From Bdellovibrionales bacterium (GTDB lineage: Bacteria; Bdellovibrionota; UBA1018; JADZFF01): DNA of 23,235 nt. The notes under the pieces are model-generated. The model worked only from the letters and a program-made list of their open reading frames with translations. It searched no databases and was not told the DNA's origin. A program made the translations under genes and the position numbers. Positions 4,375 to 17,095 of the stretch are shown piece after piece. The DNA is taken from contig JADZFF010000084.1 of assembly GCA_020850015.1 (NCBI GenBank), positions 1 to 23,235 on the forward strand. The letters run 5' to 3'. Position 1 is the stretch's first letter; each line of letters starts with the position of its first letter.

Positions 4375-5160
4375 TCACTCCGCGGCGGGCATGGCGGCGG
4401 GGTCGCGGGCGCCGTCCCAGGGGATGGTGTCCGTGGCCGGCTCCAGGATCCTGAGCACCACGCGGCGGTTCCGCATCGTGGCGTTCGAATCCACCTTGCC
4501 GTCGTTCAGCCGCTCCGGGACCCAGGGCCTCGTGTCGCCATACCCGATCGCCAGAAGGTTTTCCGGATCGAATCCACGCTCCACGAAGAGACGTACCACG
4601 CGAGAGGCGCGCGCGGCGCTGAGCTCCCAGTTCGTGGGGTAAGGGCCGCTCAACACGGGCCTGCCGTCGGTGTGGCCCTCCACGACGATCCGGAATTTTT
4701 TCATCTCCATGTACTGGCGCTCGCTCAGGGCGTCCATGATCGAGCGCAGGACCGACCGGCCTTGCTCCGTGACGTTGGCGCTCAGCGTGTCGAAAAACAG
4801 CGTGCTGTGGAAGACCATGGCCACGCCCTCTGGCTCCGAATAGATCACGACGTCCTTCTCGACCCCGTTGCTCTCGACGAGTTGGGTAACAAACCGCGCG
4901 GTCTCCGCGCTCTCGCTCTTGTAGTCGCCGCCGAAGGCCTGGGCCACGGACTCGCGCACGGGCTCGAATTTCCGCTTGTCCAGCGTGGACATGCTGAACA
5001 TCATGATGAAGAAGCCGCAGAGAAGGGTCATCATGTCGGCATAGGAAACGAGCCAGTTCGACTCGTCGTCCGCCGCCTTCTTGGGCGGCTCCTGGCCCTT
5101 GCGGGCCTGGAGATCGTCCTGGATCGCCTGGGCTTTTTTCAGGAAGGAACTGATCGCCAT
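4375..5160 (-). CDS. motB: MotB-type stator protein with OmpA-like peptidoglycan-binding domain
   Basis: N-terminal TM with the proton-channel Asp context NWLVSYADMMTLLCGFFIMMFSMS; C-terminal VEGHTDGRPV and TNWELSAARASRVVRLFVERG. Confidence 0.9.
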   Translation of the reverse strand: MAISSFLKKAQAIQDDLQARKGQEPPKKAADDESNWLVSYADMMTLLCGFFIMMFSMSTLDKRKFEPVRESVAQAFGGDYKSESAETARFVTQLVESNGVEKDVVIYSEPEGVAMVFHSTLFFDTLSANVTEQGRSVLRSIMDALSERQYMEMKKFRIVVEGHTDGRPVLSGPYPTNWELSAARASRVVRLFVERGFDPENLLAIGYGDTRPWVPERLNDGKVDSNATMRNRRVVLRILEPATDTIPWDGARDPAAMPAAE

Positions 5161-5182
5161 GAGCCCTCCCGCGCGCAGAGGC

Positions 5183-5968
5183 CTAGGCGGCCTTGCGCAC
5201 CACCCTGTCTTTCGGCAGCACGAACGAGTTGAGCGTCTCGCGCATGCTGATCGGGTTGGTCTGGGACCTCAGCATCACGCAGCCCTCCACCACCATCCGG
5301 CGCAGCGCCACCTCCTCCTCCGTCCGCACGGTGAGGTTCTCCGCAATCGGGAGAAACACGAAGTTCGCGATCGCGATCCCGTAGAGCGTGCCCACGAGAC
5401 CGATCGACATCGCCGGACCGATCATGGCCTCAGCGCCCGGTTTCCCGAGCTGCTGAAGAAGCGCGATCATTCCAAGAGTCGTGGCCAGAAGCCCGAACGC
5501 CGGCGGGAATTTACCGATCGCGCGGAACATGTTGGCCTCGTACATGTAGCGGTGCTCCACGGTCTTGATCCTCTGCTCAAGCGCGTCGCGGATCTCGCGC
5601 TCCGAAAGCACCCCGCCGGCCACGAGCGATACGGCCTCTCGGAGGAAAGGGTGCCTAATGCCGGGCAGCATGTCGTTCAGCGCCGTCACGCCGCCGATCG
5701 AGGCTTTCTTGTTGAGATCCAGGATCTGCTCGATCACCTGGTGATACTCGTTCCTGTGCGTGCCCAGAACCCTCAGAAAAAACACTTTCAAGAGGGCGAC
5801 CAGCTTCGAAACCGGGAACATGATCGACGCCGCGGCCATCGTGCCCCCGCAGACGATCACGACGCCGTGGAAGTTCAGGAAGAACTTGGCATCCATTCCA
5901 CTCTCGTGGATCGATGCGCCCACGATCCCGAGCCCAAGCAATACTCCGAAGAAGGACGAAAAATTCAT
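5183..5968 (-). CDS. motA: MotA-type stator protein
   Basis: MotA layout: N-terminal TM pair (FFGVLLGLGIVGAS / FLNFHGVVIVCGGTMAAA), cytoplasmic loop SIGGVTALNDMLPGIRHPFLREAVSLVAGG, C-terminal AFGLLATTLGMIALLQQL / IGLVGTLYGIAIANFVFLPIAENL. Confidence 0.9.
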   Translation of the reverse strand: MNFSSFFGVLLGLGIVGASIHESGMDAKFFLNFHGVVIVCGGTMAAASIMFPVSKLVALLKVFFLRVLGTHRNEYHQVIEQILDLNKKASIGGVTALNDMLPGIRHPFLREAVSLVAGGVLSEREIRDALEQRIKTVEHRYMYEANMFRAIGKFPPAFGLLATTLGMIALLQQLGKPGAEAMIGPAMSIGLVGTLYGIAIANFVFLPIAENLTVRTEEEVALRRMVVEGCVMLRSQTNPISMRETLNSFVLPKDRVVRKAA

Positions 5969-5969
5969 A

Positions 5970-6494
5970 TCAGGCCGACTCCTTACGGCTCCGCATGCGG
6001 TCCACGGCGGTCTGCCAGAGCTGGTACTGACTCACGACGTAACTTCCGTCCAGCTCCCTCAGACGCATCACCAGATCCTTCACGCAACTCTCGTAGAAGC
6101 GCACCTTCCGATCTCCAGACTCGTTGAGAAAGTGCTTGAACGCCTCCTTCGAAATGAAGAAGGTCCTGCACCTGGACTTCGCCCGAACAGTCGCGGAACG
6201 CGGCTGGTCGTCCACGAGCGACATCTCCCCGAAGTAGCTTCCCGCCGCAAGCTCCCCCACATCGTAGATCTCCTCGGTGCTCGGGTTCTTCTTGAAAACA
6301 CCCACCGCCCCCTCGGCGATGAGGAAAAGGCCCCAGGAAAACTCGCCCTCGACCACGACGTTCGAATAGGCCTCGAAGTCCCTGGCATTTCCGAGCTTGA
6401 GGAGCGCATCAAGCTCGGGGTTCGTGAACGGTGCGAAAAGCTTGATCTCGCGGAGCCACTGCACAGAGGGTTGCGTGAAGTTCGGGTCTACCAT
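5970..6494 (-). CDS. Cyclic nucleotide-binding (CRP/PKA-type) domain protein without DNA-binding domain
   Basis: VVVEGEFSWGLFLIAEGAVGVFKK and GSYFGEMSLVDDQPRSATVRAKSRC cNMP-binding cassette; no C-terminal HTH evident. Confidence 0.87.
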   Translation of the reverse strand: MVDPNFTQPSVQWLREIKLFAPFTNPELDALLKLGNARDFEAYSNVVVEGEFSWGLFLIAEGAVGVFKKNPSTEEIYDVGELAAGSYFGEMSLVDDQPRSATVRAKSRCRTFFISKEAFKHFLNESGDRKVRFYESCVKDLVMRLRELDGSYVVSQYQLWQTAVDRMRSRKESA

Positions 6495-8902
6495 CCGGCC
6501 ACCTTCTTGATTTTGGCGAGCGTGCCATCAGAGCTCGGAGGTGGCGGAGCGGCCTGGAAAGCGTTGGGAGCGGTGCCGTCGCCGTATCCATTCGAGGCAA
6601 ACATGCGTTCGTTGGTTTCCACCAGGTTGATCTTGCCGTCCGTGGACATCTTCTTGATGCGGTTGAGGATCTTGCGCTCCACGCCCGCGTAGGAGTCGCG
6701 ACCCTGCACCTGCACGGCCTCGAGCTCCTCCTCGAGCTCCGCAACCAGGTCGCGCGGGCACTTGCTGAATACCATCTGCCGAATCTCGGCAGTGGTGCCC
6801 TTCAGGAACTGCAGGAGCTCGTCGTGCCTGAGGCTCAGCACCACCTCGAGCAGGTGCTGGTCGCGCAGGTAACGGAGCGTCTCCAAGCTGATCAGCTTGT
6901 TCTTCACGCTGTGCGCGCTGTCCGGGTTGCTGCTCTCCAGGTGACCCACGACGCTTTTCTGTACGTCGAGCCCGGTCTTTTCGAGCAGGCTCACGAGCAC
7001 GTCGGTTCCCGGCAGGGCCTCCGTGTTCAGGCGCGGGTTCTCGTGCCGCTTGCGCTTGAGGGCGCTCGCCACATTGCTGATGTAGTCCTTAGGCAGGTGG
7101 TCGATCCGCGAAAGCTCCGTGAGGATGCTGGTCTTCGTCGTCTCGTCGAGCCGGCGATACACGGCGTCGCGCTTCTGGGGATCGCACTGCGTGAGCACGA
7201 TCGCCTTCACGGTCAGGGACTCGTTGCGGACCAGCTCCAGGACCTGCATGTCGTCCATGTCCACCATGAACTCGAACAGGGCCGTGGATCGGTTACCCAT
7301 GACATAGAGCTTGGACGCGACCGTGATGTTGTGGAGCGCGCGCAGGAGCTCGAGCTTCTCCTCGTCGGAGAGCTTGATCGTGTTCCTGGCGTAGAACTCA
7401 AGAAGCTCGGTCACGTCGCGCTGCAGGCTCGGGTCGCGAAGCATGTCGACGACGATGCCTTCACCGAAGATTTCGATGTACTGCGCGGTGGCTTCCACGC
7501 CCTCCTCGGTGAGGATTCGGCTGAATACCTGCTTCGCCACCTTGGGATTCTCGGCGTAGACCTTAGAGAGGGATTCGATGAAGCCTTCGATCTCGTATCT
7601 GAGCTTCACGCGCGAGGCGCGGTCGTCGCTGCCGGACCCGGACGAGGCCTGAGCGGCGTTGCCGTTGCCCAGGGGGTCTGAGATCAGGTTCTGGAAAATT
7701 CGCTGCACCGGACCTGCGGCATCCGGGTTGCCGTGCGGGCGGTAGGCGGCGAGCGCAAGGAAGATCAGAAGAGAGAGAATCGCGCAGGCAAGCACGAGCC
7801 CGTAGACCTTGAACTTGTTGAGCTCGGCCTGGACGGCGTCGCCGCTCTCCACCCGCTCGATCTTCTCGAATCGCTCGAACTTCTCAGAGCGATTCGTATT
7901 GTCCTGTGAGGAATTGGACGAATTGTTCTGGGACACGGTCTGGTTCTTCTCGGAGCTCGAGAGGCTGCGCTGGTCGAGATACCTCGAACGCGCGTCCCGC
8001 GTGAGCTTCGATGCGGCGTCGGAGCCCCCCTGGCCCACCGAGGCGATACCCCGCGAGACACGGCTCCTGAACTCGGCCATGCGCTCGGGCGACGGGAACT
8101 GCACGGAGCTTCCGTCCACCTCGACGTTCTTGTACATCGCGTTGCGGAGACGGGCCATCTCGAGGATCGAGGAGCGCTCGTCGGGGAAGAGGCCGGAATC
8201 CATCAGGATCTTCGCGCCGATCTTCCGCACGCGCACGGCGGTGTCGCCGTCCTGGAGGAACTCTCCCGTGGATCCGTACTGGGCCTCCTCGAGGTTCACG
8301 GGATCCAGAGCCACGTCGAGGTCGCTCAGCAGGCAGCGGTCCGGGCAGTACTTGTTGAACAGCTCCTCGAGGTTGGAACGGATCTCTTTCGTGACCTTCT
8401 CGCGGATCTCGGCCACCTTGCGGCTGCTCGAGGCCGGCTGCGGGAAACGGATCACCTTCTGCTCGATCGTCACGGGGTAGGAGAGCGCATCGAGGTGCTG
8501 CTGCACGAGGTCCATCACCTTGCCACGCGACACTGGCCCAAGCATCTCGTCCACGAGGATCTTCAGAAGGACGCTCGACGCCCCGATCTCGAGGGATCTG
8601 CTCTGAATGGACTCATCGAAACCCGGCGCGATGGTGTCCGGAATCAGCGTGTCCACGGACGACTCCACCGCCAGTACCTTGCAGTGATCGGAGCAGTAGC
8701 GCTCCAGGAGCGGTTCCACCAACGAGCGAACCTGATTCTCCGCCTCGCGCTTCGCCCGATCCACGGAGCCGGGCCCCGGGGCGCCCGACGCGGGCTGGGA
8801 AAGGGCCGCGAGGGCCAGCGCCGTCCCGGCGAGGCCCGCGCACGCGGCCGTCAGTTTTCTGAAAGAGAAATCCGTTCTCATTCGGAGCTTACCTTCCTCC
8901 AC
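6488..8902 (-). CDS. Membrane-anchored FliG-like protein (signal peptide, duplicated periplasmic domain, TM, cytoplasmic FliG-like region)
   Basis: Signal peptide-like N terminus; TM VYGLVLACAILSLLIFLALAAY; FliG_M-like DMQVLELVRNESLTVKAIVLTQCDPQKRDAVYRRLDETTKTSILTELSRI; FliG_C-like LLQFLKGTTAEIRQMVFSKCPRDLVAELEEELEAVQVQ...VERKILNRIKKMSTDGKINLVE. Confidence 0.82.
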   Translation of the reverse strand: MEEGKLRMRTDFSFRKLTAACAGLAGTALALAALSQPASGAPGPGSVDRAKREAENQVRSLVEPLLERYCSDHCKVLAVESSVDTLIPDTIAPGFDESIQSRSLEIGASSVLLKILVDEMLGPVSRGKVMDLVQQHLDALSYPVTIEQKVIRFPQPASSSRKVAEIREKVTKEIRSNLEELFNKYCPDRCLLSDLDVALDPVNLEEAQYGSTGEFLQDGDTAVRVRKIGAKILMDSGLFPDERSSILEMARLRNAMYKNVEVDGSSVQFPSPERMAEFRSRVSRGIASVGQGGSDAASKLTRDARSRYLDQRSLSSSEKNQTVSQNNSSNSSQDNTNRSEKFERFEKIERVESGDAVQAELNKFKVYGLVLACAILSLLIFLALAAYRPHGNPDAAGPVQRIFQNLISDPLGNGNAAQASSGSGSDDRASRVKLRYEIEGFIESLSKVYAENPKVAKQVFSRILTEEGVEATAQYIEIFGEGIVVDMLRDPSLQRDVTELLEFYARNTIKLSDEEKLELLRALHNITVASKLYVMGNRSTALFEFMVDMDDMQVLELVRNESLTVKAIVLTQCDPQKRDAVYRRLDETTKTSILTELSRIDHLPKDYISNVASALKRKRHENPRLNTEALPGTDVLVSLLEKTGLDVQKSVVGHLESSNPDSAHSVKNKLISLETLRYLRDQHLLEVVLSLRHDELLQFLKGTTAEIRQMVFSKCPRDLVAELEEELEAVQVQGRDSYAGVERKILNRIKKMSTDGKINLVETNERMFASNGYGDGTAPNAFQAAPPPPSSDGTLAKIKKVAGW

Positions 8903-9660
8903 TTGGACTGGTCTGACTTGCGCTCGAGGTAGGCCTTGAGCGCAAGGTTGTTCGGGTCGAGCTTCACGGACTGCTGCCAGGAACGGATCGCAAGATCGCG
9001 GTAGCCGAGTCGGTCGAGCAGGGTCCCGCGCATCTCGTAGAGGCGCGGGTCGGTTGGGAAGCTGCGCAAGAGCGCGTCGGTCTCGAGCAGACCCGCCTCG
9101 TAACGGCCCAGGCGGAAAAGCTGTTTCACCTTGTCGAGCGAGGCGAGATAGCTCGTGCCTCCGCGCGGGCCCGGGTCCTCCACGGGCCGAAGCCCGAGGC
9201 CCTGCTCAATCTCCTGCCGCTCGCGGTCGTCGGCCGGATTGCCCTGCGGCATGCGGTTCACGATCTCCAGATCCGTGGCCGTGGGTTTGCGCTCGGTGTA
9301 GCTCTGATCCATGGGTACGCCGTCGGCGTCGAGCGAGGCCGGCCTCCGGCCTTCGCCGCCTTCGATCGACTCGGCGAACTGAGGCGTGAGCGGCACCATG
9401 AAGTCCTGGAACTCCGGCTGGTCGCCCGGCAGCTCCACCTCGAGCGAGCGATGGCCCTTCTTGGTGCGGAACACCACGCGGTCCTGGCTCTGCTTCTGAA
9501 TCCACGCGGTATCGAGGAATGGGTTCTCGATCACTCCCTTCCCCGCCCCGCCATTCGGGGAGGGGCCGAGCCCGATCGATGAGCATCCGGAGGCGATGCT
9601 CAGTACGACCAGGGCGCAGAGGGTCACCGCCGCGGTCATCACCGCGTCCATCCGGGCCAT
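8878..9660 (-). CDS. TPR-containing lipoprotein
   Basis: Lipobox VVLSIASGC; C-terminal TPR-like YEAGLLETDALLRSFPTDPRLYEMRGTLLDRLGYRDLAIRSWQQSVKLDPNNLALKAYLERK. The track ORF starts at 9720; internal ATG at 9660 or 9651 is more plausible. Confidence 0.8.
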   Translation of the reverse strand: MARMDAVMTAAVTLCALVVLSIASGCSSIGLGPSPNGGAGKGVIENPFLDTAWIQKQSQDRVVFRTKKGHRSLEVELPGDQPEFQDFMVPLTPQFAESIEGGEGRRPASLDADGVPMDQSYTERKPTATDLEIVNRMPQGNPADDRERQEIEQGLGLRPVEDPGPRGGTSYLASLDKVKQLFRLGRYEAGLLETDALLRSFPTDPRLYEMRGTLLDRLGYRDLAIRSWQQSVKLDPNNLALKAYLERKSDQSKWRKVSSE

Positions 9661-9691
9661 ACGGGCCCGCCGGCGATCCTGATGAGCCCCC

Positions 9692-10882
9692 TCAGAAGAG
9701 GGCACTGATTCCCAAGCCAATCTCCACTCCCGTCACTGATCCCGCCTCGCTGCCGTCGATGAACCGGGTGGCCTTGGGCCTGAAACCCAGGTTTCCGTTC
9801 ACCGCCCAGTGCTTTCCCAATCGCCATTCGTAACCCGCGCGCACCAGTCCCCCGAGGAATCCCGAGGCATAGGTGCCCCCGATCCCGGCGAAGATGCTGT
9901 GCCTCACCTGATTGAAGTTCTCGAGCTCCCCGATGAGGTTCCACGCATGCACGAAGAGCAGCGTGAGGTTGAAGCTCGCGTAAAGCTTGTTGTCCGCGTC
10001 GGTGGTGTTTCCCACCAGCTGGTTCGCGTCGAGGAGGTAGTTCAACTCGAATCCGACTTCCTTCTTCCGGTTGTCGTACCGCTCCATCATCCGGAACCCG
10101 ATGCCCAAGGTGCTGGAGTACTCTTCCACGTCCCGCTCGAAGAAATAGTAGATGGTCGGCCGGTAGAGGATCGTGGGCACGTAGTCCACGCTCTTCCTCG
10201 CGTCCTCGACCTGCGAGTAGTCCACGCCCCGGCGGAAGGCGGCGGCGCGCGAGGTCTCGGAGTTGTAGCTCTTCGACCACACCACGGCCCCAGTCTCGGA
10301 GTCCGTGATGAACATCGAGAGCATCAGACCGGTGGGCTGGTAGGCGAAGGCCACGTCCATGAAGTTCGAGATCCCGCTCTGCGAGGCCAGACGTGAGAGC
10401 TCCTGCGGGTTGCTCGTGGGCGTGGTGATCACGACGTAGTCGTTGTTGAGGCGCGCCTGCTTGGACTTGCAGGGCAGGCACTGGATGATCTTGCTCTTCG
10501 TATTGTTTAGGATCCGCTCGGTGACGAGCAGCTCGAGGTGGCTCTTGAACGACGGCGGGATGTTCTCGCTCGTGGCCACGTTGCGGATCGAGAGGTTCTT
10601 CAGCCCCTCGACCTCGCCGTTCTTCAGGTCGTACTCGAAATCGGACACGACATCGTCGAGCACCTGGTAGAAATTGCGGACGCGCTCGTCTTCGCTTGCG
10701 GCCGGCGCGGGCGCCACCGGGCCCTGCTGAAGCGGAGCTTCGGCGGTAGTGGAGGCGGCCTGGCTGGACTTCACCGCATCTGCTGCCCCCGCAGAGGGCG
10801 GAAGGAGGGCGCAGAGGGCCATCAGCCCTCCCAAGACGCCCGAAAACTTTAACGTGATGCGGCAATGCACGTGATGCTTCAC
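9692..10882 (-). CDS. Secreted protein with CsgG/FlgO-like N-terminal domain and probable C-terminal outer-membrane beta-barrel
   Basis: GTG start preceded by GGGGAGGAAGG; signal peptide ending PPSAGA; TERILNNTKSKIIQC and GLMLSMFITDSETGAVVWSKSY segments; alternating barrel-like strands ending in aromatic Phe (GLGISALF). Confidence 0.65.
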   Translation of the reverse strand: MKHHVHCRITLKFSGVLGGLMALCALLPPSAGAADAVKSSQAASTTAEAPLQQGPVAPAPAASEDERVRNFYQVLDDVVSDFEYDLKNGEVEGLKNLSIRNVATSENIPPSFKSHLELLVTERILNNTKSKIIQCLPCKSKQARLNNDYVVITTPTSNPQELSRLASQSGISNFMDVAFAYQPTGLMLSMFITDSETGAVVWSKSYNSETSRAAAFRRGVDYSQVEDARKSVDYVPTILYRPTIYYFFERDVEEYSSTLGIGFRMMERYDNRKKEVGFELNYLLDANQLVGNTTDADNKLYASFNLTLLFVHAWNLIGELENFNQVRHSIFAGIGGTYASGFLGGLVRAGYEWRLGKHWAVNGNLGFRPKATRFIDGSEAGSVTGVEIGLGISALF

Positions 10883-10937
10883 CCTTCCTCCCCAGGCTCT
10901 TCGGCGAAGTTCCTAATAGCTTGAATACGTTAGGGTT

Positions 10938-10965
10938 TTGACTGACTCATTTAATCTACTATAAG
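10938..10965 (+). promoter_or_regulatory. Candidate sigma70-type promoter for the lipoprotein gene at 10986
   Basis: TTGACT (10938-10943), 16-nt spacer, TATAAG (10960-10965) in the AT-rich divergent intergenic region. Confidence 0.45.
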
Positions 10966-10985
10966 ACCGATAAGAAAGATGAGGT

Positions 10986-11984
10986 ATGGGGGGAAGAACC
11001 ATAAAAACAGCCGCAATCCTGGGAAGCACCCTGCTTGCCGGCTGCTCTACGCCCCAGGGTGCCATTCCCCTGCCGGAGCTGCCCGAGGTGCCGGCCTACG
11101 TACGGGTTCCCCACCCCGGCAACGCCGATTTGAACGAGGTCCGGGCCCTATTCCAGAGCCCCGAGGCCCCAACTCCTGAAACCCTCGCCGCCTGCACCGC
11201 CGACTACGAGCGGATCCAGACGATGACCCAGAGCAAGGAAGACCACTCGCAGGCCGCGCAGGAGCTCGTGGGCCTGCGTCCCGAGGCCTATCACTGGTGC
11301 CTGTACTGGCAGTTCGTGCGCCTCGAGGACCGCATCAAGGAACTCCCGTACCATGACGAGCGCCAGGCCGAGGTCCTCAAGGCCTATGCCTTCATTGTTC
11401 CCGTGGCCCGCGCATTCCGCGAGGTCTACCAGGACTCGCGGTATTTGCGGATCGCCGCCTTCCGCTACCAGAAGGTCAGCGAACGCATCTTCTTCAGACA
11501 GGTGGCCCTGACCTCCGAAGGGGCACGTGACCTGCTGGCCGCCCAGTCGCTGGATCCGCACTCGGTGTGGCAAGCGATGAAAGACACTCAGTCTCCCACT
11601 TTGGAGCGGCTCGGGTTCGTGCCCCCGCCCTCCGAGGTGGACACCTTGATCAAAGAAGCCCCAGCCGGACCCGCCACGGCTGACGTGCCCGCTCCCGCGG
11701 GTGATGCGCCTCCGGCGGCCGCGACGGAACCCGCCGCTGCGCCCGCCGAAGCCGAAGTGGACTCGGAATGGGAGAAGGAGCTCCAGGCGATGGGGGACAA
11801 GGCAGAACCTCCAGCCGCGGCTCCGGTGGACCCCGCGGCGCCTCCCGCGCCCGAGGCCACCGCCCAGGCCGCGCCCCCACCGGCTGATCCGGCCCGCGCC
11901 CCCAGCGCGACGACCGAGCCCTCCCTCGAAGGAATCGAGGAGTTCTCGGCACCGACCGACCCTCCGGCAAACCCTGCCGATTGA
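10986..11984 (+). CDS. Lipoprotein of unknown function with Ala/Pro/Glu-rich C-terminal tail
   Basis: N terminus MGGRTIKTAAILGSTLLAGCST has a good lipobox (LLAGC); C terminus is PA/E-rich low complexity. Confidence 0.78.
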   Translation: MGGRTIKTAAILGSTLLAGCSTPQGAIPLPELPEVPAYVRVPHPGNADLNEVRALFQSPEAPTPETLAACTADYERIQTMTQSKEDHSQAAQELVGLRPEAYHWCLYWQFVRLEDRIKELPYHDERQAEVLKAYAFIVPVARAFREVYQDSRYLRIAAFRYQKVSERIFFRQVALTSEGARDLLAAQSLDPHSVWQAMKDTQSPTLERLGFVPPPSEVDTLIKEAPAGPATADVPAPAGDAPPAAATEPAAAPAEAEVDSEWEKELQAMGDKAEPPAAAPVDPAAPPAPEATAQAAPPPADPARAPSATTEPSLEGIEEFSAPTDPPANPAD

Positions 11985-12026
11985 CCCCTCACGCGCCGCG
12001 CCTGACCCTCTGGATTGGGGGACTCT

Positions 12027-12998
12027 ATGCGCTGGAATTGCCCGCACTGCTCGATTGAACTGTACCTGGACGACGCTCGCGTCGGGAACGGCTGGTCCTT
12101 CGCGCGCTGCTACAGCTGCGCGGGATTCAGCCTGGTCCGCAAGTCCAACGTGAATACGATCCGGATCGACCAGGCCCCGACGCCGGAAACGATCCTTCAG
12201 CCCCAACCTTCCGTTCCGCGCGTCGAGGTCCCCGCGCAGGGGCCGGTGGCGAACGCGCTGACCCGCCTCGGCGTGGCTCAGAAGAACCTCGGAGAGGCCC
12301 AGACCTCAAGGCCGCAGGTGATCCCCGGCCGCCGCACTCAGCCGCCCGGCCAGACCACGGCGGCGGCTGCCGCCCCGGCCGCGAAAAACATCTTTGGCAC
12401 CCGAACTTTGCCTCAACCGCTTCCGCTCAACCCGCGCACCAGCTCCACTCCTAAGGCTGCGGCGGCCCGCCGTTCGCGCGGGCTGATTCCAGTCGTGCTC
12501 GGGATCATGGCCGTGCTGGTCACAGGCAGCGGCGCCTTCCTTTACGTCCAAGGGCAGAACATGTGGGACCGCGCCCGCGCGGAGCTGGGCCCGGACACCG
12601 ATGGCGTGAAGCTCGGCGCCTCGGCGCCTCAGCGCGCGGCCGGAGCCAAGGCCAGGAAGTCGCAACACAAGGACGCGACGATCTTCTCCGACCGCATCGG
12701 CCAGGGCGCCATGGCCCCCAACCGGGAAATGGGACCCGGAGCCGTGGTCCGCGCCGACGAAGAGACCGACGGGATCCCCGGCCGCATGGTGGTGCGGCCC
12801 ATCCAAAACGCGGTGAACCTGCGGATGGGCCCGGGGACGAAGTACCCCATCGTGGGCCAGGCCGACGCGACGATCACCTACACCGTGACGGAATGGCGCG
12901 AACAGTGGTTCCGCATCATCCCGAACACGGGGCCTGCGGAAGAGGCCTGGATCCGCAACGACTACGTGAACACGGTCAAAGAGACTTCGCAGGAGTGA
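12027..12998 (+). CDS. MJ0042-like zinc-ribbon, single TM, bacterial SH3-like domain protein
   Basis: MRWNCPHC...CYSCAGFSLV zinc ribbon; TM LIPVVLGIMAVLVTGSGAFLYV; C-terminal AVNLRMGPGTKYPIVGQ...WFRIIP...EEAWIRNDYV SH3b-like. The track ORF starts at 12015; ATG 12027 fits better. Confidence 0.8.
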   Translation: MRWNCPHCSIELYLDDARVGNGWSFARCYSCAGFSLVRKSNVNTIRIDQAPTPETILQPQPSVPRVEVPAQGPVANALTRLGVAQKNLGEAQTSRPQVIPGRRTQPPGQTTAAAAAPAAKNIFGTRTLPQPLPLNPRTSSTPKAAAARRSRGLIPVVLGIMAVLVTGSGAFLYVQGQNMWDRARAELGPDTDGVKLGASAPQRAAGAKARKSQHKDATIFSDRIGQGAMAPNREMGPGAVVRADEETDGIPGRMVVRPIQNAVNLRMGPGTKYPIVGQADATITYTVTEWREQWFRIIPNTGPAEEAWIRNDYVNTVKETSQE

Positions 12999-14508
12999 TC
13001 GGCTCGCAGGCCCAGATCAGGATCTCCTTGGCCTTGAGGCCCCAGCGCAGGATCTCATTTCTCTGGGCCACGGCGCATCTCGCGTTCTTGAACCGGGGCT
13101 CGCCGGAGTACCGGTTGTCCGAGACGTAGAAGACGGAGCGCTCAAGCCGCGGCCAGGTTTGCGGGGTGTCGGCTGGCAAGTCGCCGTCCAGCCCGAAGAA
13201 CCGCGGCCATTCGTCCCAGTCGCGAATCGTCTTCGGAGAAAGCGTCGCTCGGTTGGGGTCGCCGCCTGCCCGCGCGATCGCCGCGGCCGCCTGCGAGGCC
13301 GTCTGGTAGCGGGATCCGATCACGGGCACCTCCGATTTCGCGAGCGGCTCGAGCGCCTGCCTCCAGCCGTAGAGGTCGTTCGTCACGTCCCACTTCGGGT
13401 CGGGCGCGTCCTTTCCCCGCGCGAGGATCGATGCCGCGGCCGTGAACACGGGCGCGTGGCATGCCAGGAGCATCAGCGCCACCAAGGGAAAACCCCAGGC
13501 CAGGTGCAGGCGCGCCAGGCTCCGCTCGCCCGTCGATGCAAGGCCCGAGGCCGCGCGGTAGCCGAGCTCCCAAGCCAGCGGAATCCACACCACCATCGGC
13601 CAGTGGGGCTTGAAGTCCGCGATCAGGGGCTGGAAAAAATAGACGAGCGCGGGCGGCGCCACCCAGATCGCCGTGAACCTCGCCACCTCGTTTCGACGGT
13701 CGATCCACAGCCTCCTCCCGAACCAGATCAGGTACAGCACGAGCGCCGGGCCGCCGAGCCCCAACTGACTTCCCCAGAAGCGCAGCCAGCGCAGGATGGA
13801 GAAACCGCCGGAATGGCGATCCTTCAATTGGTAAAGCAGCGACACCCACTCGTGTTCGAGATTCCAGGCCACCGTCGGCGCCGCGGCCACGAGCCCCCCC
13901 AGGAAGATCGCCGCGAGCGCGGGAACCCTCCGCTTGCGCGCAGGCCAGACGCAGACCGCGGCGGAAAGGGCCACGAGCACCCCGGAGTGCTTCGAGAGCG
14001 TGGCGATGAGCACGCCGGCGAAGAGCAGCGCCGCGCCGGGAAGGTTCTGGGCGGACACCCGCCAGGCACCCCAGAAGGCCAACGCCCAGCCCAGCAGGAG
14101 CGGAAGGTCCGGCACCATCATCCAGCCCGCGGCGCCGAAACCAGGAAGCGTGAGCAACATGGCACCGGCGGCCCAGGCGTAGTGCCGGTGCACGCCCAGG
14201 CTCAGAAGCCAGCGGGAGCCGATGAAGGCCAAGCCGCCCGCGCAAAGCGCGGCGGGGAGGCGGACCACGAAGGGGTGCGCGGAGCCGAACAGGGGGCGCA
14301 GGAGCCCCTCCGCGGCCGCGATCAGCCAGGCCACGAACGGAGGGTGGTAGGCGTAGCCCAGGGCGGGGCGCTGAGAGAGCACCCAGTAGTAGGCTTCGTC
14401 GTCGGAGAGCCCCAGCAGCGCGCCGTGCGCGGCGAAGAGAGCGAAGATCAGCGCGGCGATGCCCGCGCCCGCGGGAAGCCTGGGCTCAGTTGACTGAGCC
14501 ACCGTCAC
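12976..14508 (-). CDS. Glycosyltransferase family 39 / ArnT-like membrane transferase
   Basis: Multi-TM protein; GLSDDEAYYWVLSQRPALGYAYHPPFVAWLIAAAEGL matches PMT_2/ArnT-type acidic loop; MVPDLPLLLGWALAFW. Confidence 0.85.
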   Translation of the reverse strand: MTVAQSTEPRLPAGAGIAALIFALFAAHGALLGLSDDEAYYWVLSQRPALGYAYHPPFVAWLIAAAEGLLRPLFGSAHPFVVRLPAALCAGGLAFIGSRWLLSLGVHRHYAWAAGAMLLTLPGFGAAGWMMVPDLPLLLGWALAFWGAWRVSAQNLPGAALLFAGVLIATLSKHSGVLVALSAAVCVWPARKRRVPALAAIFLGGLVAAAPTVAWNLEHEWVSLLYQLKDRHSGGFSILRWLRFWGSQLGLGGPALVLYLIWFGRRLWIDRRNEVARFTAIWVAPPALVYFFQPLIADFKPHWPMVVWIPLAWELGYRAASGLASTGERSLARLHLAWGFPLVALMLLACHAPVFTAAASILARGKDAPDPKWDVTNDLYGWRQALEPLAKSEVPVIGSRYQTASQAAAAIARAGGDPNRATLSPKTIRDWDEWPRFFGLDGDLPADTPQTWPRLERSVFYVSDNRYSGEPRFKNARCAVAQRNEILRWGLKAKEILIWACEPITPAKSL

Positions 14509-15520
14509 CGCCCTGCTCGCGGAACACGTAGGCGGGAACCTCGAACCGGATCACGGTGCTGATGCCTTCCTTGAACCGCTCCCAGTACCCGTGCGCGTGC
14601 CGTGCGTCCGCCGTGGGAAGCTCCAGGGTCAGCGTGGGAATCCCACGCTCCTGCCCGGCGTAGTTTCCGAGACTGCCGGGGAAAAACCCGCCATGCTGGG
14701 CTTTCACACGGGAGCGGAGCTCCAGGCACTTGTGCACGTACTCCTTGGGAAACTGCTTGAGGGCGATGGACATCGGGCCGTCGTAGTCCATGAAGTTCAG
14801 GGGCGAGTGCACACTCAACACTTTGTGGGGCTGCACCTCCTCGATGAGCCTCACCTGGAAGCGGGTCTCGGGCTCCGAGTTAGGCCCGGTGCCCGGATAG
14901 CGGCGCGGATTTCCGCCGAAGCGCTTGCGCCACTTCTGGAGCGCCTCGCGCGACCAGTCGGCCGTGCCGAAGTTGCGGTTCACGTCCACGCCGTTTGCGT
15001 TGGTGCGGGTGCGCCTCTCAGCGTAGAAGCCGTCCGGGTTCACGAGCGGAGCCACGATCACGCGAGCCTCCGTGAGGCTCTGCGGATGCTCTCCGAGCCA
15101 CTGCACGAGTTGGAGGGCCACGTAAAGAGGGGTGATCTCATCCGGGTGCACCATGGAGAAGATGAGCGTGGTGTTCTCCTCCGCCTGGGCGTTCCCGAAC
15201 TCCGCGTAAACCAGCGGGCGGCCCCGGACCGAGGTCCCGCCGAGCTTCCACCTGCGCCAGTCACAGGGGGGCAGGGTCCATCCCAGCCTGTTCACCTCGG
15301 CATCGAGGTCCGCGCACCAGCTCTTGAGCGCCGCTTCGTCGCTGGCGCGGCCGATTGCAGGAGCCGAACCCGTGGTCCCGGCCGTGGTCTCAGGCACCTC
15401 GTCCGTGGACGCGGCCTTCTTGCCGCCGAAAGCCCAGGCATCGCCCGCCGCGAGCGCGAACACACCCAGCCCGGCGGCCCCGGCGCAGAGTGCGGCTGCG
15501 ATGGTTCTCCCAAGGATCAT
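14486..15520 (-). CDS. Secreted M14-family zinc carboxypeptidase (murein peptide amidase-like)
   Basis: Signal peptide; zinc motif VHPDEITPLYVALQLV; VNPDGFYAERRTNANGVDVNRNFG; catalytic-Glu context GIPTLTLELP. Confidence 0.85.
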   Translation of the reverse strand: MILGRTIAAALCAGAAGLGVFALAAGDAWAFGGKKAASTDEVPETTAGTTGSAPAIGRASDEAALKSWCADLDAEVNRLGWTLPPCDWRRWKLGGTSVRGRPLVYAEFGNAQAEENTTLIFSMVHPDEITPLYVALQLVQWLGEHPQSLTEARVIVAPLVNPDGFYAERRTRTNANGVDVNRNFGTADWSREALQKWRKRFGGNPRRYPGTGPNSEPETRFQVRLIEEVQPHKVLSVHSPLNFMDYDGPMSIALKQFPKEYVHKCLELRSRVKAQHGGFFPGSLGNYAGQERGIPTLTLELPTADARHAHGYWERFKEGISTVIRFEVPAYVFREQGGDGGSVN

Positions 15521-16174: not shown

Positions 16175-17095
16175 CTACTCCTCTTCCTTCCTGCTCAGGG
16201 GATGAGCCCCACGATACTGATCCAAAAGCTCCCCGAGGTCCACATGCGTATAACGCTGAGTGGTGGAAAGCCGCGAATGTCCTAGCATTTCCTGAATCGA
16301 CCTCAAATCTGCCCCAGACGAAAGCAGATGGGTAGCGAAACTGTGCCGCAGGCCATGAGGTGAGATTTTCCCGCCCAGCGCCGCCATGCCCTCGACGCTG
16401 GCCGCGAGCCGCACCAGATGCCGGGCCAGGATCCGAGCCACACTCCTAGAGGTCAGGCGCCCGCCCCGGGAGTTCGTGAACGCGGGTACCGCCCCGCGAT
16501 CCGCGAACGCGGCCTCCAAGGCCTCTCTCGCGGGCGGACCGAAGGGAACCTGGCGCACCTTGTTTCCCTTGCCCAGCACCCTCACCCAGCCCCCGGAGAG
16601 GTCGATATCGGTGCGGTCCAGGCCCACCGCCTCGCTCACCCGGAGGCCCGCGCCGTAAATCAGCTCGAAGAGCGCGCGGTCGCGCCGGCCCAGCGCCGTG
16701 GAGCTGTCGACGGTTCGCAACAGCTCCACGACCTCTTCAATCCGCAGATAACGGGGAAGCGGCCGTTGAACGCGGGGCGTGGGAACAAGCTTGCCGATCT
16801 CGCGCTCCATCGCGCCCTTGCGCTTGAGGTGCCGGAGAAATCCCCGAATGGCGGCCAGCCTTCGGCCGAGGGAGCTCCGATTGAGCCGGCCGTCGAGCCC
16901 CGCCAGGTAACGCCGCAAGAGCGCGGGCGTGAGCTCACGCTCCAGATCCTGGGCCAGTCGGATCCCCTCCGTCCGCTCCAGACTCGCTAGCCAGTCCTCG
17001 AGGTCGCTGCGGTAGGCGCGAAGGGTGTGCTCGCTCCAGGTCCGCCCAAAGCGCCCCTCCTCCAGATAGCCTTCCATGGCCTCGCTCAACCTCAT
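16175..17095 (-). CDS. xerC: Tyrosine recombinase XerC/XerD family
   Basis: IYGAGLRVSEAVGL, SPHGLRHSFATHLLSSGADLRSIQEMLGHSRLSTTQRYTHVD give the catalytic R/K/H-R/H/Y set. Confidence 0.92.
   Translation of the reverse strand: MRLSEAMEGYLEEGRFGRTWSEHTLRAYRSDLEDWLASLERTEGIRLAQDLERELTPALLRRYLAGLDGRLNRSSLGRRLAAIRGFLRHLKRKGAMEREIGKLVPTPRVQRPLPRYLRIEEVVELLRTVDSSTALGRRDRALFELIYGAGLRVSEAVGLDRTDIDLSGGWVRVLGKGNKVRQVPFGPPAREALEAAFADRGAVPAFTNSRGGRLTSRSVARILARHLVRLAASVEGMAALGGKISPHGLRHSFATHLLSSGADLRSIQEMLGHSRLSTTQRYTHVDLGELLDQYRGAHPLSRKEEE

What the first reader, a model, noticed from the sequence alone, without database searches (positions are those of the whole stretch)
4375..10882. Candidate undescribed MotAB-powered trans-envelope machine
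Six co-directional genes with overlapping or nearly abutting ends run: OM-barrel-like protein, TPR lipoprotein, TM-anchored FliG-like protein, cyclic-nucleotide-binding protein, MotA, MotB. This supplies an outer-membrane component, periplasmic parts, an inner-membrane coupling protein with a cytoplasmic FliG-like torque region, a regulatory input, and a proton-channel stator pair. None of the usual flagellar neighbours (fliF, fliM, fliN, flh, flg) is within the cluster. The parts suggest a rotary or force-generating apparatus distinct from the standard flagellum, conceptually comparable to other stator-driven systems such as Myxococcus Agl/Glt gliding but built around a FliG homologue.
Basis: partly seen in the sequence, partly recalled or inferred. 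Interest (0 to 1): 0.85.

Follow-up and report, generated by a model that had tools for sequence, protein, structure and literature searches.

The report
Flagellum-free FliG–MotAB envelope motor candidate
An uncultured Bdellovibrio relative has a conserved gene cluster that pairs a flagellar-type proton motor (MotA/MotB) with a single protein combining a ring-building periplasmic part and the flagellar torque receiver FliG, plus two outer-membrane proteins; this looks like a compact, undescribed rotary machine separate from the flagellum.

Summary
Six co-directional, abutting or overlapping genes on the minus strand (4375-10882) encode:
- an outer-membrane protein (TolB-N/LpoB-like periplasmic domain plus 8-stranded barrel);
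- a TPR lipoprotein;
- an 804-aa membrane protein;
- a cyclic-nucleotide-binding protein;
- MotA;
- MotB.

The 804-aa protein is more than a TM-anchored FliG. It has a signal peptide, two periplasmic alpha-beta-beta-alpha-beta domains whose fold matches FliF/YscD ring-building motifs, one TM helix, and a near full-length but deeply diverged FliG (22% identity to a canonical FliG of the same bacterial class).

All 58 related genome loci that carry the five core genes keep the window's order. These loci are all Bdellovibrionota, mainly GTDB class UBA1018. Five distant relatives (GC 36-63%) keep the same five genes in a different order, so this is a module and not inherited synteny.

A member of the class (FG-1) also has a complete canonical flagellar gene set and several other MotAB pairs.

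Best reading: a dedicated rotor-stator motor, derived from flagellar parts, with no filament or export apparatus. It is coupled to outer-membrane proteins and gated by cAMP/cGMP. Its output is unknown.

Main rival: an accessory of the sheathed flagellum, since flagellin genes lie nearby in 30 of 79 loci.

I found no prior description.

The parts
9692..10882 (-). Outer-membrane protein (396 aa by the GTG at 10882; NCBI aa from the ATG at 10822). It has a signal peptide, a periplasmic alpha/beta domain of TolB-N/LpoB type (aa ~70-207), and a C-terminal 8-stranded beta-barrel (aa 238-394) ending in ...GISALF.
   Evidence: The AF2 model has mean pLDDT 72, and 80-94 in the barrel. Foldseek matches: TolB 6e-6, OmpA-TM 7e-5, NspA 1e-4, OmpW 1e-4, LpoB C-domain 6e-4. 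The C-terminal residue is Phe in 58 of 63 homologues. Found upstream of the TPR gene in every locus where the contig reaches that far and in distant loci L081, L084, L085 and L086.
8878..9720 (-). TPR lipoprotein (280 aa from the TTG at 9720; the likely true start is the ATG at 9660 or 9651). It has a lipobox LSIASG-C with Ser at +2, a central low-complexity region and C-terminal TPRs (aa ~196-258).
   Evidence: Pfam TPR_2 E 1e-4 and TPR_14 E 4.5e-4, both below gathering score. Lipobox seen in the sequence. The family HMM finds the same gene in distant loci at E 1e-16 to 1e-26.
6488..8902 (-). Rotor candidate: an 804-aa fusion-type protein (797 aa from the ATG at 8881). Layout: signal peptide, two RBM-fold domains, Ser/Asn-rich linker, invariant juxtamembrane motif, one TM helix, then FliG-like N, M and C domains.
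   Evidence: Pfam FliG_M and FliG_C above cutoff. AF2 model. Foldseek matches FliG (3hjl 2e-6, Salmonella C-ring FliG) and FliF MS-ring (7bk0_B 3.3e-4, 6scn 2e-3) plus YscD (4alz 1.8e-2). hhalign to canonical FliG gives 97.4%. 175 homologues at E<=1e-5.
8450..8770 (-). Periplasmic RBM-like domain 1 (aa 45-151), topology alpha-beta-beta-alpha-beta, with invariant C70-x3-C74.
   Evidence: DSSP elements H45-69, E74-85, E106-118, H123-137, E144-151, pLDDT about 90. Invariant columns in A1.
8102..8434 (-). Periplasmic RBM-like domain 2 (aa 157-267), same topology, with invariant C186-x3-C190.
   Evidence: DSSP elements H157-185, E190-202, E221-235, H240-253, E260-267. Invariant columns.
7829..7885 (-). 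Juxtamembrane periplasmic motif EKFERFEKIERVESGDAVQ (aa 340-358), the most conserved stretch of the protein. It is preceded by a variable Ser/Asn-rich disordered linker (aa 284-339, nt 7886-8053).
   Evidence: Invariant E340 E346 I348 E349 R350 V351 E352 G354 D355 A356 V357 in 25 sequences. Linker pLDDT is below 50. Coordinates checked.
7745..7813 (-). Single transmembrane helix (aa 364-386).
   Evidence: Hydrophobic run FKVYGLVLACAILSLLIFLALAA, inside predicted helix 355-386.
6593..7633 (-). Cytoplasmic FliG-like region (aa 424-770). FliG_M is aa 553-622 (nt 7037-7246) and FliG_C is aa 654-760 (nt 6623-6943). The torque-helix equivalent KCPRDLVAELEEEL is aa 714-727 (nt 6722-6763).
   Evidence: The family consensus for the helix is K-x-P-(K/R)-(D/E)-L-x-x-(E/D)-L-E-(E/D)-E-L in 70 sequences. 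The FliM-binding EHPQ motif is replaced by NESL.
5970..6494 (-). Stand-alone cyclic-nucleotide-binding (CAP-effector type) protein, 174 aa, with no DNA-binding domain.
   Evidence: Pfam cNMP_binding E 7.6e-18. The phosphate-binding cassette FGEMSL..PRSATV is invariant in 59 homologues. The gene is present in 48 and absent in 10 of the 58 complete loci. A homologue lies 2.7 kb from the cluster in distant locus L080.
5183..5968 (-). MotA, 261 aa, of the short PomA/MotP-like flagellar stator type.
   Evidence: Pfam MotA_ExbB. Best NCBIfam models are MotP, MotA and PomA at 135-150 bits, all below equivalog cutoffs. The only PDB hits at E<=0.01 are flagellar MotA/PomA (2e-33 to 4e-8); no ExbB or TolQ appears. 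Residues equivalent to E. coli R90 and E98 are S/A and N in 68 family members.
4375..5160 (-). MotB, 261 aa, with a plug region, a TM helix carrying the invariant Asp42, and an OmpA-like peptidoglycan-binding domain.
   Evidence: Pfam MotB_plug 2e-18 and OmpA 9e-15. D42 is invariant in 64 homologues.
10986..11984 (+). Possible seventh component: a divergently transcribed lipoprotein (332 aa, lipobox LLAG-C) with a Pro/Ala-rich tail.
   Evidence: No Pfam family. A homologue sits next to the barrel gene in most UBA1018 loci. It stayed with the six genes through the inversion seen in the window and L001. It is not found in the distant loci, so membership is uncertain.
10883..10985 (.). AT-rich 103-bp divergent intergenic region between the barrel gene and the lipoprotein gene. 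It is the presumed promoter region. A purine-rich stretch (GGGGAGGAAGG) lies just before the GTG at 10882.
   Evidence: Read directly. The sigma-70 consensus scan found nothing, so this is uninformative.

Best explanation
The cluster most likely encodes a self-contained, ion-driven rotor-stator machine built from flagellar-motor parts, without a flagellum's export apparatus, rod, hook, filament or switch.

Shown:
- MotA/MotB are flagellar-type stator proteins with the proton-binding Asp, a plug and a peptidoglycan anchor.
- The 804-aa protein places a near full-length FliG homologue on the cytoplasmic face of the inner membrane. It is joined through one TM helix to two periplasmic domains with the ring-building-motif fold seen in FliF, SctJ and SctD.
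- These genes are invariably linked with an outer-membrane-anchored periplasmic protein and a TPR lipoprotein.

Inferred:
- The fusion protein oligomerises into a ring, an MS-ring and FliG ring in one polypeptide. Engineered FliF-FliG fusions are known to form such rings.
- PG-anchored MotA5B2 units turn this ring through the FliG C-terminal helix.
- The periplasmic ring hangs on a long flexible linker and passes torque or force to, or is held by, the barrel protein's TolB-N/LpoB-like domain and the TPR lipoprotein at the outer membrane.
- The small cyclic-nucleotide-binding protein acts on MotA or the FliG domain as a cAMP/cGMP-dependent clutch or brake, by analogy with c-di-GMP-PilZ proteins such as YcgR.

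The canonical charge pairs are changed on both partners. MotA R90 and E98 become S/A and N. FliG R281 becomes D/E. This fits a private interface that does not cross-talk with the cell's own flagellar motor.

The mechanical output is unknown. Candidates are surface movement, envelope or prey-entry work, or outer-membrane remodelling.
For: - Domain identities.
- Structure models and fold matches to both FliG and FliF/YscD in one protein.
- Barrel protein model.
- hhalign to a canonical FliG of the same class gives 97.4% over FliG residues 38-327, at only 22% identity, so it is an old paralogue and not a recent copy.
- All 58 loci carrying the five core genes are colinear.
- Five distant loci (GC 36-63%) keep barrel, TPR, MotA, MotB and the RBM-TM-FliG protein together in a different order.
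- FG-1 has a full canonical flagellar cluster, one FliF, a strong FliG (309 bits), weak extra FliG hits, and about 10 MotA hits.
- The FliM-binding EHPQ and MFxF motifs are present in FG-1 FliG but absent in the fusion.
- Charge changes occur on both MotA and the FliG helix. The canonical pairs R90-D289 and E98-R281 are as stated in PMC7564593.
- The CNB cassette and MotB Asp are invariant.
- Engineered FliF-FliG fusions form rings: PDB 8z4d and PMC11481574.
Against: - There is no experimental or imaging evidence, and no cultured host was found.
- Ring formation is inferred from fold only. The periplasmic profile has no sequence match to FliF or SctJ, and the whole-protein model has pTM 0.36.
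- The canonical torque-generating charges are not conserved. The MotA-FliG contact may therefore work differently or not at all.
- Flagellin genes lie 2-7 kb away in 30 of 79 loci.
- The only members with a described phenotype have a thick polar flagellum, so a flagellar role is not excluded.
- Wider synteny around the cluster is also conserved within the class. Within-class colinearity alone is therefore weak evidence.
Confidence: 0.55

Rival explanations
1. The cluster is an accessory of the sheathed polar flagellum. The barrel protein, lipoproteins and RBM ring would form a periplasmic or outer-membrane collar or disk, like the Vibrio H/T rings or the Campylobacter PflA/PflB scaffold. The extra MotAB would be one more flagellar stator set. 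The FliG-like domains would sit beside the C-ring, for example as an outer ring contacting the far side of the stators.
For: - FG-1/FG-2 cells have a single, unusually thick flagellum.
- Flagellin genes lie within 2-7 kb in 30 of 79 loci.
- The stator is of flagellar type.
- TPR and outer-membrane proteins are typical of flagellar periplasmic scaffolds (general knowledge of PflA/PflB and FlgO/FlgP/FlgT).
- Bdellovibrio uses several MotAB pairs on one flagellum (from my own knowledge of that literature, not checked here).
Against: - The protein carries its own ring-building domains and a whole FliG, duplicating FliF and FliG that the genome already has.
- FliM-binding motifs are lost.
- MotA and the FliG helix have both lost the canonical charge pairs, which argues against interaction with the normal rotor.
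- No fli, flg or flh structural gene is ever inside the block.
- The window and L001 have lost the flagellin neighbourhood but kept the block.
- No named cultured Bdellovibrio or Bacteriovorax genome appeared among the 85 genome hits, 80 of which were kept.
Confidence: 0.25
2. The cluster is not a rotary machine. The membrane-anchored FliG-like protein would be a docking or decoy platform that recruits and activates, or sequesters, its MotAB units. They would then act as a regulated ion leak, a PMF or cyclic-nucleotide signalling device, or a Tol-Pal/TonB-like linear force transducer pulling on the outer-membrane partners.
For: - The canonical torque charges are altered.
- A long disordered tether separates the RBM domains from the membrane.
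- A TolB-N/LpoB-like domain and a TPR partner recall Tol-Pal/CpoB.
- A cyclic-nucleotide sensor is present.
Against: - The whole FliG architecture (N, M and C domains) is retained under strong conservation, not just a MotA-binding helix.
- RBM folds are best known as ring formers.
- The CNB gene is dispensable in 10 of 58 loci.
Confidence: 0.1
3. The cluster is a decaying remnant of a second flagellar system, left with a fused fliF-fliG and a motAB pair.
For: Its components are flagellar homologues.
Against: - There are intact ORFs in 79 species-level genomes plus distant lineages.
- Identity to the window protein averages 48% across 69 homologues, and there are many invariant columns.
- The architecture is constant and the non-flagellar partners are constant.
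- Start/stop overlaps typical of coupled translation are retained.
Confidence: 0.03

Closest known systems
Flagellar motor core (FliF MS-ring, FliG, MotA5B2 stators)
   Same: It has FliG middle and C-terminal domains with a charged C-terminal helix. The periplasmic domains have the ring-building-motif fold, followed by a TM helix. The stator is a flagellar-type MotA plus a MotB with plug, invariant Asp and OmpA-like anchor.
   Different: - Rotor functions sit in one polypeptide with a cleavable signal peptide instead of FliF's first TM helix.
- There are only two RBM-like domains and no RBM3 or beta-collar.
- There is no sequence match to the YscJ/FliF family.
- FliM, FliN, the type III export gate, rod, hook and filament are all absent.
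- The EHPQ and MFxF motifs are lost.
- The equivalents of MotA R90/E98 and FliG R281 are not conserved.
- It has obligate outer-membrane barrel and TPR lipoprotein partners.
Engineered or spontaneous FliF-FliG fusion proteins (Salmonella; Vibrio, PDB 8z4d/8z4g, PMC11481574)
   Same: A covalent MS-ring-FliG fusion assembles into rings, which shows the architecture is mechanically viable.
   Different: Those are laboratory fusions of canonical FliF and FliG inside a complete flagellum. This one is a natural, ancient and strongly diverged family with its own stators.
Type III secretion inner-ring lipoprotein SctJ (PrgK/EscJ/YscJ)
   Same: The topology matches: signal peptide, two periplasmic RBM domains, a C-terminal TM helix.
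   Different: SctJ is lipidated, has only a short cytoplasmic tail, and has no link to FliG or MotAB. No sequence similarity was detected here.
Myxococcus/Bdellovibrio Agl-Glt gliding machinery
   Same: An inner-membrane ion-driven motor is linked through periplasmic TPR and lipoproteins to outer-membrane beta-barrel proteins.
   Different: Agl motors are TolQR/ExbBD-type, the 'generic ion transporter' clade of PMC12505986, and no FliG is involved. Here the motor is of the flagellar clade type and the coupling protein is a FliG homologue.
Tol-Pal with CpoB, and TonB-ExbBD
   Same: A 5:2-type motor energises outer-membrane-associated partners. A TolB-N/LpoB-fold domain and a TPR protein are present.
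   Different: There is no TolA- or TonB-like extended coupling protein. Coupling here would run through a FliG-type cytoplasmic interface and RBM domains.
Flagellar periplasmic scaffolds (Vibrio H/T rings FlgO/FlgP/FlgT/MotX/MotY; Campylobacter PflA/PflB)
   Same: Outer-membrane proteins, lipoproteins and TPR proteins are associated with MotAB-type stators.
   Different: Those scaffolds contain no FliG or RBM-TM protein and are encoded with, or regulated as, flagellar genes. No sequence match to them was seen.
YcgR/MotI/FlgX PilZ-type motor regulators
   Same: A small cytoplasmic nucleotide-sensing protein is encoded next to the stator genes. This role is inferred.
   Different: The sensor here is a cAMP/cGMP-type CAP-effector domain, not a c-di-GMP PilZ domain. 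No interaction has been shown.

Membership tests
FliG (flagellar rotor/switch protein) | FliG middle and C-terminal domains detectable by profile | tested here: met
   Pfam FliG_M 32.7 bits (cutoff 25) and FliG_C 58.9 bits (cutoff 23.3). PDB FliG matches at 1e-12. Foldseek 3hjl 2e-6. hhalign 97.4% to FG-1 FliG residues 38-327.
FliG (flagellar rotor/switch protein) | Orthology-level score (NCBIfam TIGR00207 equivalog) | tested here: not met
   56.9 bits against a cutoff of 226.7. Identity to the canonical FliG of the same class is 22%.
FliG (flagellar rotor/switch protein) | FliM-binding EHPQ motif and MFxF hinge | tested here: not met
   EHPQ is replaced by NESL and MFVF by LISL in alignments to T. 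maritima and FG-1 FliG. FG-1 FliG keeps both motifs.
FliG (flagellar rotor/switch protein) | Torque-helix charges (E. coli R281, D288, D289) | tested here: inconclusive
   The acidic pair is kept as E725/E726. The R281 position is D/E, with a K/R one residue earlier.
FliF / SctJ (YscJ_FliF family, MS-ring / inner ring) | Sequence membership (Pfam PF01514 or an HMM match to solved FliF/SctJ) | tested here: not met
   No Pfam hit at E<=0.1. The periplasmic-domain profile finds no FliF or SctJ in PDB sequences at E<=10.
FliF / SctJ (YscJ_FliF family, MS-ring / inner ring) | Tandem alpha-beta-beta-alpha-beta ring-building-motif folds in the periplasm followed by a TM helix | tested here: met
   DSSP topology of aa 45-151 and 157-267. 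Foldseek matches FliF 7bk0_B 3.3e-4, 6scn 2e-3, YscD 4alz 1.8e-2.
FliF / SctJ (YscJ_FliF family, MS-ring / inner ring) | Assembly into a ring | not testable with these tools
   No multimer prediction or experiment was available.
Flagellar-type stator MotA/PomA | MotA_ExbB channel domain, with flagellar stators rather than ExbB/TolQ as closest relatives | tested here: met
   Pfam hit at 1e-19. Top NCBIfam models are MotP, MotA and PomA. All ten PDB matches at E<=0.01 are flagellar MotA or PomA.
Flagellar-type stator MotA/PomA | Rotor-contacting charges equivalent to E. coli R90 and E98 | tested here: not met
   The positions are S/A and N in 68 family members. The flanking KK and D/E are retained.
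MotB | Plug, TM helix with the conserved Asp, OmpA-like peptidoglycan-binding domain | tested here: met
   Pfam MotB_plug and OmpA. D42 is invariant in 64 sequences.
Cyclic-nucleotide-binding (CAP effector) domain | Domain profile and intact phosphate-binding cassette (G-E-x-S/A-L ... R-S/T-A) | tested here: met
   Pfam hit at 7.6e-18. FGEMSL..PRSATV is invariant in 59 sequences. Ligand binding itself was not tested.
Eight-stranded outer-membrane beta-barrel (OmpA/OmpX/OmpW class) | Eight antiparallel strands closing a barrel, with a C-terminal aromatic residue | tested here: met
   Eight strands at aa 238-394. Foldseek matches OmpA-TM, NspA, OmpW, OmpX and PagL. The terminal residue is Phe in 58 of 63. 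There is no Pfam sequence hit.
Zorya (ZorABCD) anti-phage system | ZorA with a long tail, plus ZorC/ZorD | tested here: not met
   PADLOC finds no ZorA, ZorC or ZorD hit. MotB gives only a generic MotB-family match to ZorB. MotA is 261 aa with no tail.
Agl-Glt gliding machinery | TolQ/TolR-type AglRQS motor | tested here: not met
   The stator is flagellar-type with a MotB plug and OmpA domain.
Ordinary flagellar gene cluster | Neighbouring fliF, fliM, fliN, flh or flg genes | tested here: not met
   None were found among the ORFs of the window scanned or in annotated neighbourhoods. Only flagellin genes occur nearby, in 30 of 79 loci.

The most novel reading that the evidence does not exclude
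This is a free-standing, filament-less rotary motor. A ring of RBM-TM-FliG fusion proteins would be spun by private flagellar-type MotAB stators and coupled across the periplasm to outer-membrane proteins. That would make it the first non-flagellar machine to use the FliG-MotA torque interface. It would be either a simplified offshoot of the flagellar motor or a surviving example of the kind of rotor-stator device that could have preceded the flagellum. In these probable predators it may drive surface movement or prey entry at the non-flagellated 'bottlenose' pole.
Probability: 0.35. Interest if true: 0.95.

Novelty: new variant of a known kind. Interest (0 to 1): 0.8.

Why it matters
Every known use of FliG and of flagellar-clade MotAB stators is inside a flagellum. 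Recent phylogenies treat that stator clade as flagellum-specific (PMC12505986).

A conserved module that joins a FliG homologue, ring-building domains and its own stators to outer-membrane proteins, with no export apparatus, rod or filament, would show two things. The rotor-stator core can work as an independent unit. It can also be wired to other outputs.

That bears on an old question: what a proto-flagellar rotor could have been useful for. It would also provide a minimal natural system of five or six genes for studying torque generation.

It also flags a systematic mis-annotation. JGI and KEGG label these proteins 'flagellar motor switch protein FliG'.

The system can be approached experimentally. 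Two carriers, FG-1 and FG-2, are magnetotactic and can be enriched magnetically for cryo-tomography without cultivation.

Tried and rejected
(1) I guessed that the ~570-620-aa proteins matching only the first periplasmic domain were FliF. Pfam shows they are not. They are short one-RBM variants of the same architecture with a very diverged FliG-like region, and they are also next to MotAB.

(2) A sequence-level link between the periplasmic region and FliF/SctJ was not found. Only fold similarity remains.

(3) Zorya or Pycsar defence systems are excluded.

(4) I looked for a cultured host and found none. All 175 and 346 homologue hits, the 79 genome loci, and the ten relatives of the Silvanigrellales-type protein come from MAGs or metagenomes.

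(5) Literature searches on combinations of FliG-like, non-flagellar MotA, Bdellovibrionota, FliF-FliG fusion, gene neighbourhood, UBA1018 and Silvanigrella found no description of this cluster.

(6) Promoter and terminator consensus scans were uninformative: zero promoters, and terminators at chance level.

(8) Colinearity within class UBA1018 alone is discounted as proof of function, because unrelated flanking genes (M14 peptidase, VTT, XerC-like, TrmFO) are also syntenic. The argument rests on the rearranged distant loci instead.

Full report
**What is in the window.** The window is GC-rich (about 66%). It is essentially identical to a contig of a Bdellovibrionales MAG: the 804-aa protein matches IT285_06935 at 100% identity.

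Pfam confirms four of them outright:
- FliG_M and FliG_C in the 804-aa protein, both above gathering score;
- a cNMP_binding domain (E 7.6e-18);
- MotA_ExbB (E 1e-19);
- MotB_plug plus OmpA (E 2e-18 and 9e-15).

The TPR assignment rests on sub-threshold TPR hits plus a clear lipobox.

The barrel has no Pfam family. Its model has eight C-terminal strands ending in Phe, and it matches OmpA-TM, NspA, OmpW and OmpX. Its N-terminal periplasmic domain matches TolB-N and LpoB.

The genes overlap or nearly abut: an ATGA overlap, a 7-nt overlap, then gaps of 1 and 22 nt. None of the 25 window ORFs scanned against Pfam or NCBIfam is a flagellar structural gene.

**The central protein is more than a membrane-anchored FliG.** An alignment of 25 homologues (A1) and an AlphaFold2 model (mean pLDDT 72) show the following layout:
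- a cleavable-looking signal peptide;
- two periplasmic domains (aa 45-151 and 157-267), each with alpha-beta-beta-alpha-beta topology and an invariant CxxxC;
- a variable Ser/Asn-rich disordered linker;
- an invariant juxtamembrane motif, EKIERVExGDAVQ;
- one TM helix;
- an all-helical cytoplasmic region.

Foldseek against the PDB returns two kinds of match for this one protein. The first is full-length FliG (Aquifex 3hjl 2e-6; Salmonella C-ring FliG). The second is the FliF MS-ring (7bk0_B 3.3e-4; 6scn 2e-3) together with the YscD periplasmic domain.

The periplasmic part therefore has the ring-building-motif fold. There is no sequence-level link to FliF or SctJ, so I claim a shared fold, not family membership.

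The cytoplasmic part aligns with a canonical FliG from the same bacterial class (FG-1; sequence from the supplement of PMC13200544). hhalign gives 97.4% probability over FliG residues 38-327, at only 22% identity. It is an old, diverged paralogue covering the N, M and C regions.

The FliM-binding EHPQ motif and the MFxF hinge are present in FG-1 FliG and absent here. That fits the absence of any FliM or FliN partner.

**The stator and a possibly private interface.** MotA is of the short PomA/MotP-like flagellar type. All PDB matches are flagellar MotA or PomA (2e-33 to 4e-8), and none is ExbB or TolQ. All NCBIfam equivalog cutoffs are missed. MotB keeps the plug and the PG-binding domain, and Asp42 is invariant in 64 homologues.

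The canonical electrostatic pairs are MotA R90 with FliG D289, and MotA E98 with FliG R281 (PMC7564593). In 68 family MotAs the R90 and E98 equivalents are S/A and N. In 70 family rotor proteins the R281 position is D/E with a K/R one residue earlier, while the acidic pair is kept.

Loss of the E98-R281 pair on both partners fits a co-evolved interface that does not cross-talk with the flagellar motor. This is an inference from alignments, not a demonstrated contact.

**Distribution and linkage.** The rotor protein has 175 relatives at E<=1e-5. A scan of one genome per species found 79 loci, all in Bdellovibrionota MAGs.

In all 58 loci that contain the five core genes, they are colinear on one strand. 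The CNB gene is present in 48 and absent in 10.

Colinearity within this group is weaker evidence than it looks, because flanking housekeeping genes are also syntenic.

The stronger evidence comes from remote relatives. These were found with a profile of the periplasmic region alone, searched against 1.8 billion representative proteins (158 hits). In five such loci, with GC 36-63% and one lineage labelled Silvanigrellales, the same five genes occur in a different order: barrel, TPR, MotA, MotB, then the RBM-TM-FliG protein.

There are three architectural variants:
- about 800 aa with two RBMs;
- about 910-990 aa with an N-terminal extension;
- about 570-620 aa with one RBM and two extra conserved downstream genes.

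A module that survives gene-order shuffling across this divergence is a functional unit.

**Relation to the flagellum.** Two carriers, FG-1 and FG-2, are described in PMC13200544. They are magnetotactic vibrios of GTDB class UBA1018, with one thick polar flagellum and a pointed 'bottlenose' opposite pole.

The KEGG table for FG-1 lists:
- a standard flgB-flgC-fliE-fliF-fliG-fliH-fliI...fliM-fliN-fliP cluster;
- one FliF;
- one strong FliG (309 bits) plus weak extra FliG hits (for example 114.7 bits);
- about ten MotA and five MotB hits.

The cluster is therefore additional to a complete flagellar set, and its MotAB are not the sole stators.

One caveat stands. Flagellin genes lie 2-7 kb upstream of the barrel gene in 30 of 79 loci. 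In the window and its closest relative L001, the block plus a divergent lipoprotein gene has been inverted away from that neighbourhood.

**Mechanism proposed.**
- Shown: the parts list and its linkage.
- Inferred: the fusion protein forms a ring, an MS-ring and FliG ring in one chain. Engineered FliF-FliG fusions do this (PDB 8z4d; PMC11481574).
- Inferred: PG-anchored MotA5B2 units turn the ring through the FliG C-terminal helix.
- Inferred: the periplasmic RBM ring, held on a long flexible linker, engages the barrel protein's TolB-N/LpoB-like domain and the TPR lipoprotein at the outer membrane.
- Inferred: the stand-alone CNB protein, whose phosphate-binding cassette is invariant, gates the motor in response to cAMP/cGMP, much as PilZ proteins do with c-di-GMP.

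The output is unknown. I give this reading 0.55. The alternatives are a flagellar accessory (0.25), a non-rotary docking, signalling or force-transducing device (0.10), and a decaying remnant (0.03).

**Novelty.** I found no description in the searchable literature. Databases call these proteins 'hypothetical', 'FliG C-terminal domain-containing' or, wrongly, 'flagellar motor switch protein FliG'. It is not Zorya or Pycsar.

I class it as a new variant of a known kind, namely ion-driven stator-powered envelope machines and flagellar-motor derivatives. There is a substantial chance that it is something more distinct: the first non-flagellar FliG-MotAB rotary device.

Noticed in passing
L082 3766-5886; also L009, L012, L014, L016, L018, L019, L024, L025, L031 and others (30 of 79 loci): One or two flagellin genes lie 2-7 kb upstream of the barrel gene, separated from it by an M48 peptidase and the divergent lipoprotein gene. 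The window and L001 lack this neighbourhood.
   Followed up: partly
window 4375-11984 compared with L002-L079: In the window and L001, the six genes plus the divergent lipoprotein gene are inverted relative to the SH3 / 510-aa / M14-peptidase genes. In most relatives those genes follow MotB. The seven genes moved as one block.
   Followed up: partly
window 12015-15520 (SH3 protein, 510-aa protein with no Pfam hit, M14 carboxypeptidase): This trio directly follows MotB in most UBA1018 genomes. The SH3 protein has an N-terminal CxxC...CxxC zinc-ribbon-like segment and a TM helix. With the M14 peptidase this hints at peptidoglycan work. The trio is absent from the distant loci, so it is probably not part of the module.
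   Followed up: partly
L062 and L063 (Bdellovibrionota bacterium FG-1): FG-1 has two copies of the barrel-TPR-rotor genes on two contigs. Both contigs break at the same rotor residue (595), as if a shared downstream sequence collapsed the assembly. One copy is more diverged (TPR 29% identity). These may be paralogous clusters or mixed strains.
   Followed up: no
window 8689-8703 and 8341-8355 (rotor protein C70-x3-C74 and C186-x3-C190): Each periplasmic RBM-like domain carries an invariant CxxxC at the helix-1/strand-1 junction. These could be disulfides or metal sites.
   Followed up: no
window 7829-7885: The periplasmic juxtamembrane motif EKIERVExGDAVQ is the most conserved stretch of the whole rotor protein, more so than the FliG domains. 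It may contact the MotB plug/linker or another partner.
   Followed up: no
L080 4100-5610 and L084 11885-13620: The short one-RBM variant is always followed by two extra conserved genes with no Pfam family: a lipoprotein of about 314-372 aa and a protein of about 190-200 aa.
   Followed up: partly
L043, L044, L046, L049, L051-L053, L055, L061, L066, L069, L072: This sub-clade lacks the cyclic-nucleotide-binding gene. MotA directly follows the rotor gene, and no CNB homologue lies within 10 kb.
   Followed up: partly
proteins P0003, P0005, P0390-P0395; FG-1 gene OOOAGBFP_04250: JGI and KEGG pipelines label these 750-990-aa proteins 'flagellar motor switch protein FliG' (K02410). This inflates FliG counts in these genomes.
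   Followed up: yes
window 16175-17095: A XerC/XerD-type tyrosine recombinase sits in a conserved housekeeping block (VTT-domain protein, TrmFO/GidA-family protein, EamA transporter). It is syntenic across the class, so it is probably chromosomal Xer and not a mobile-element integrase.
   Followed up: partly
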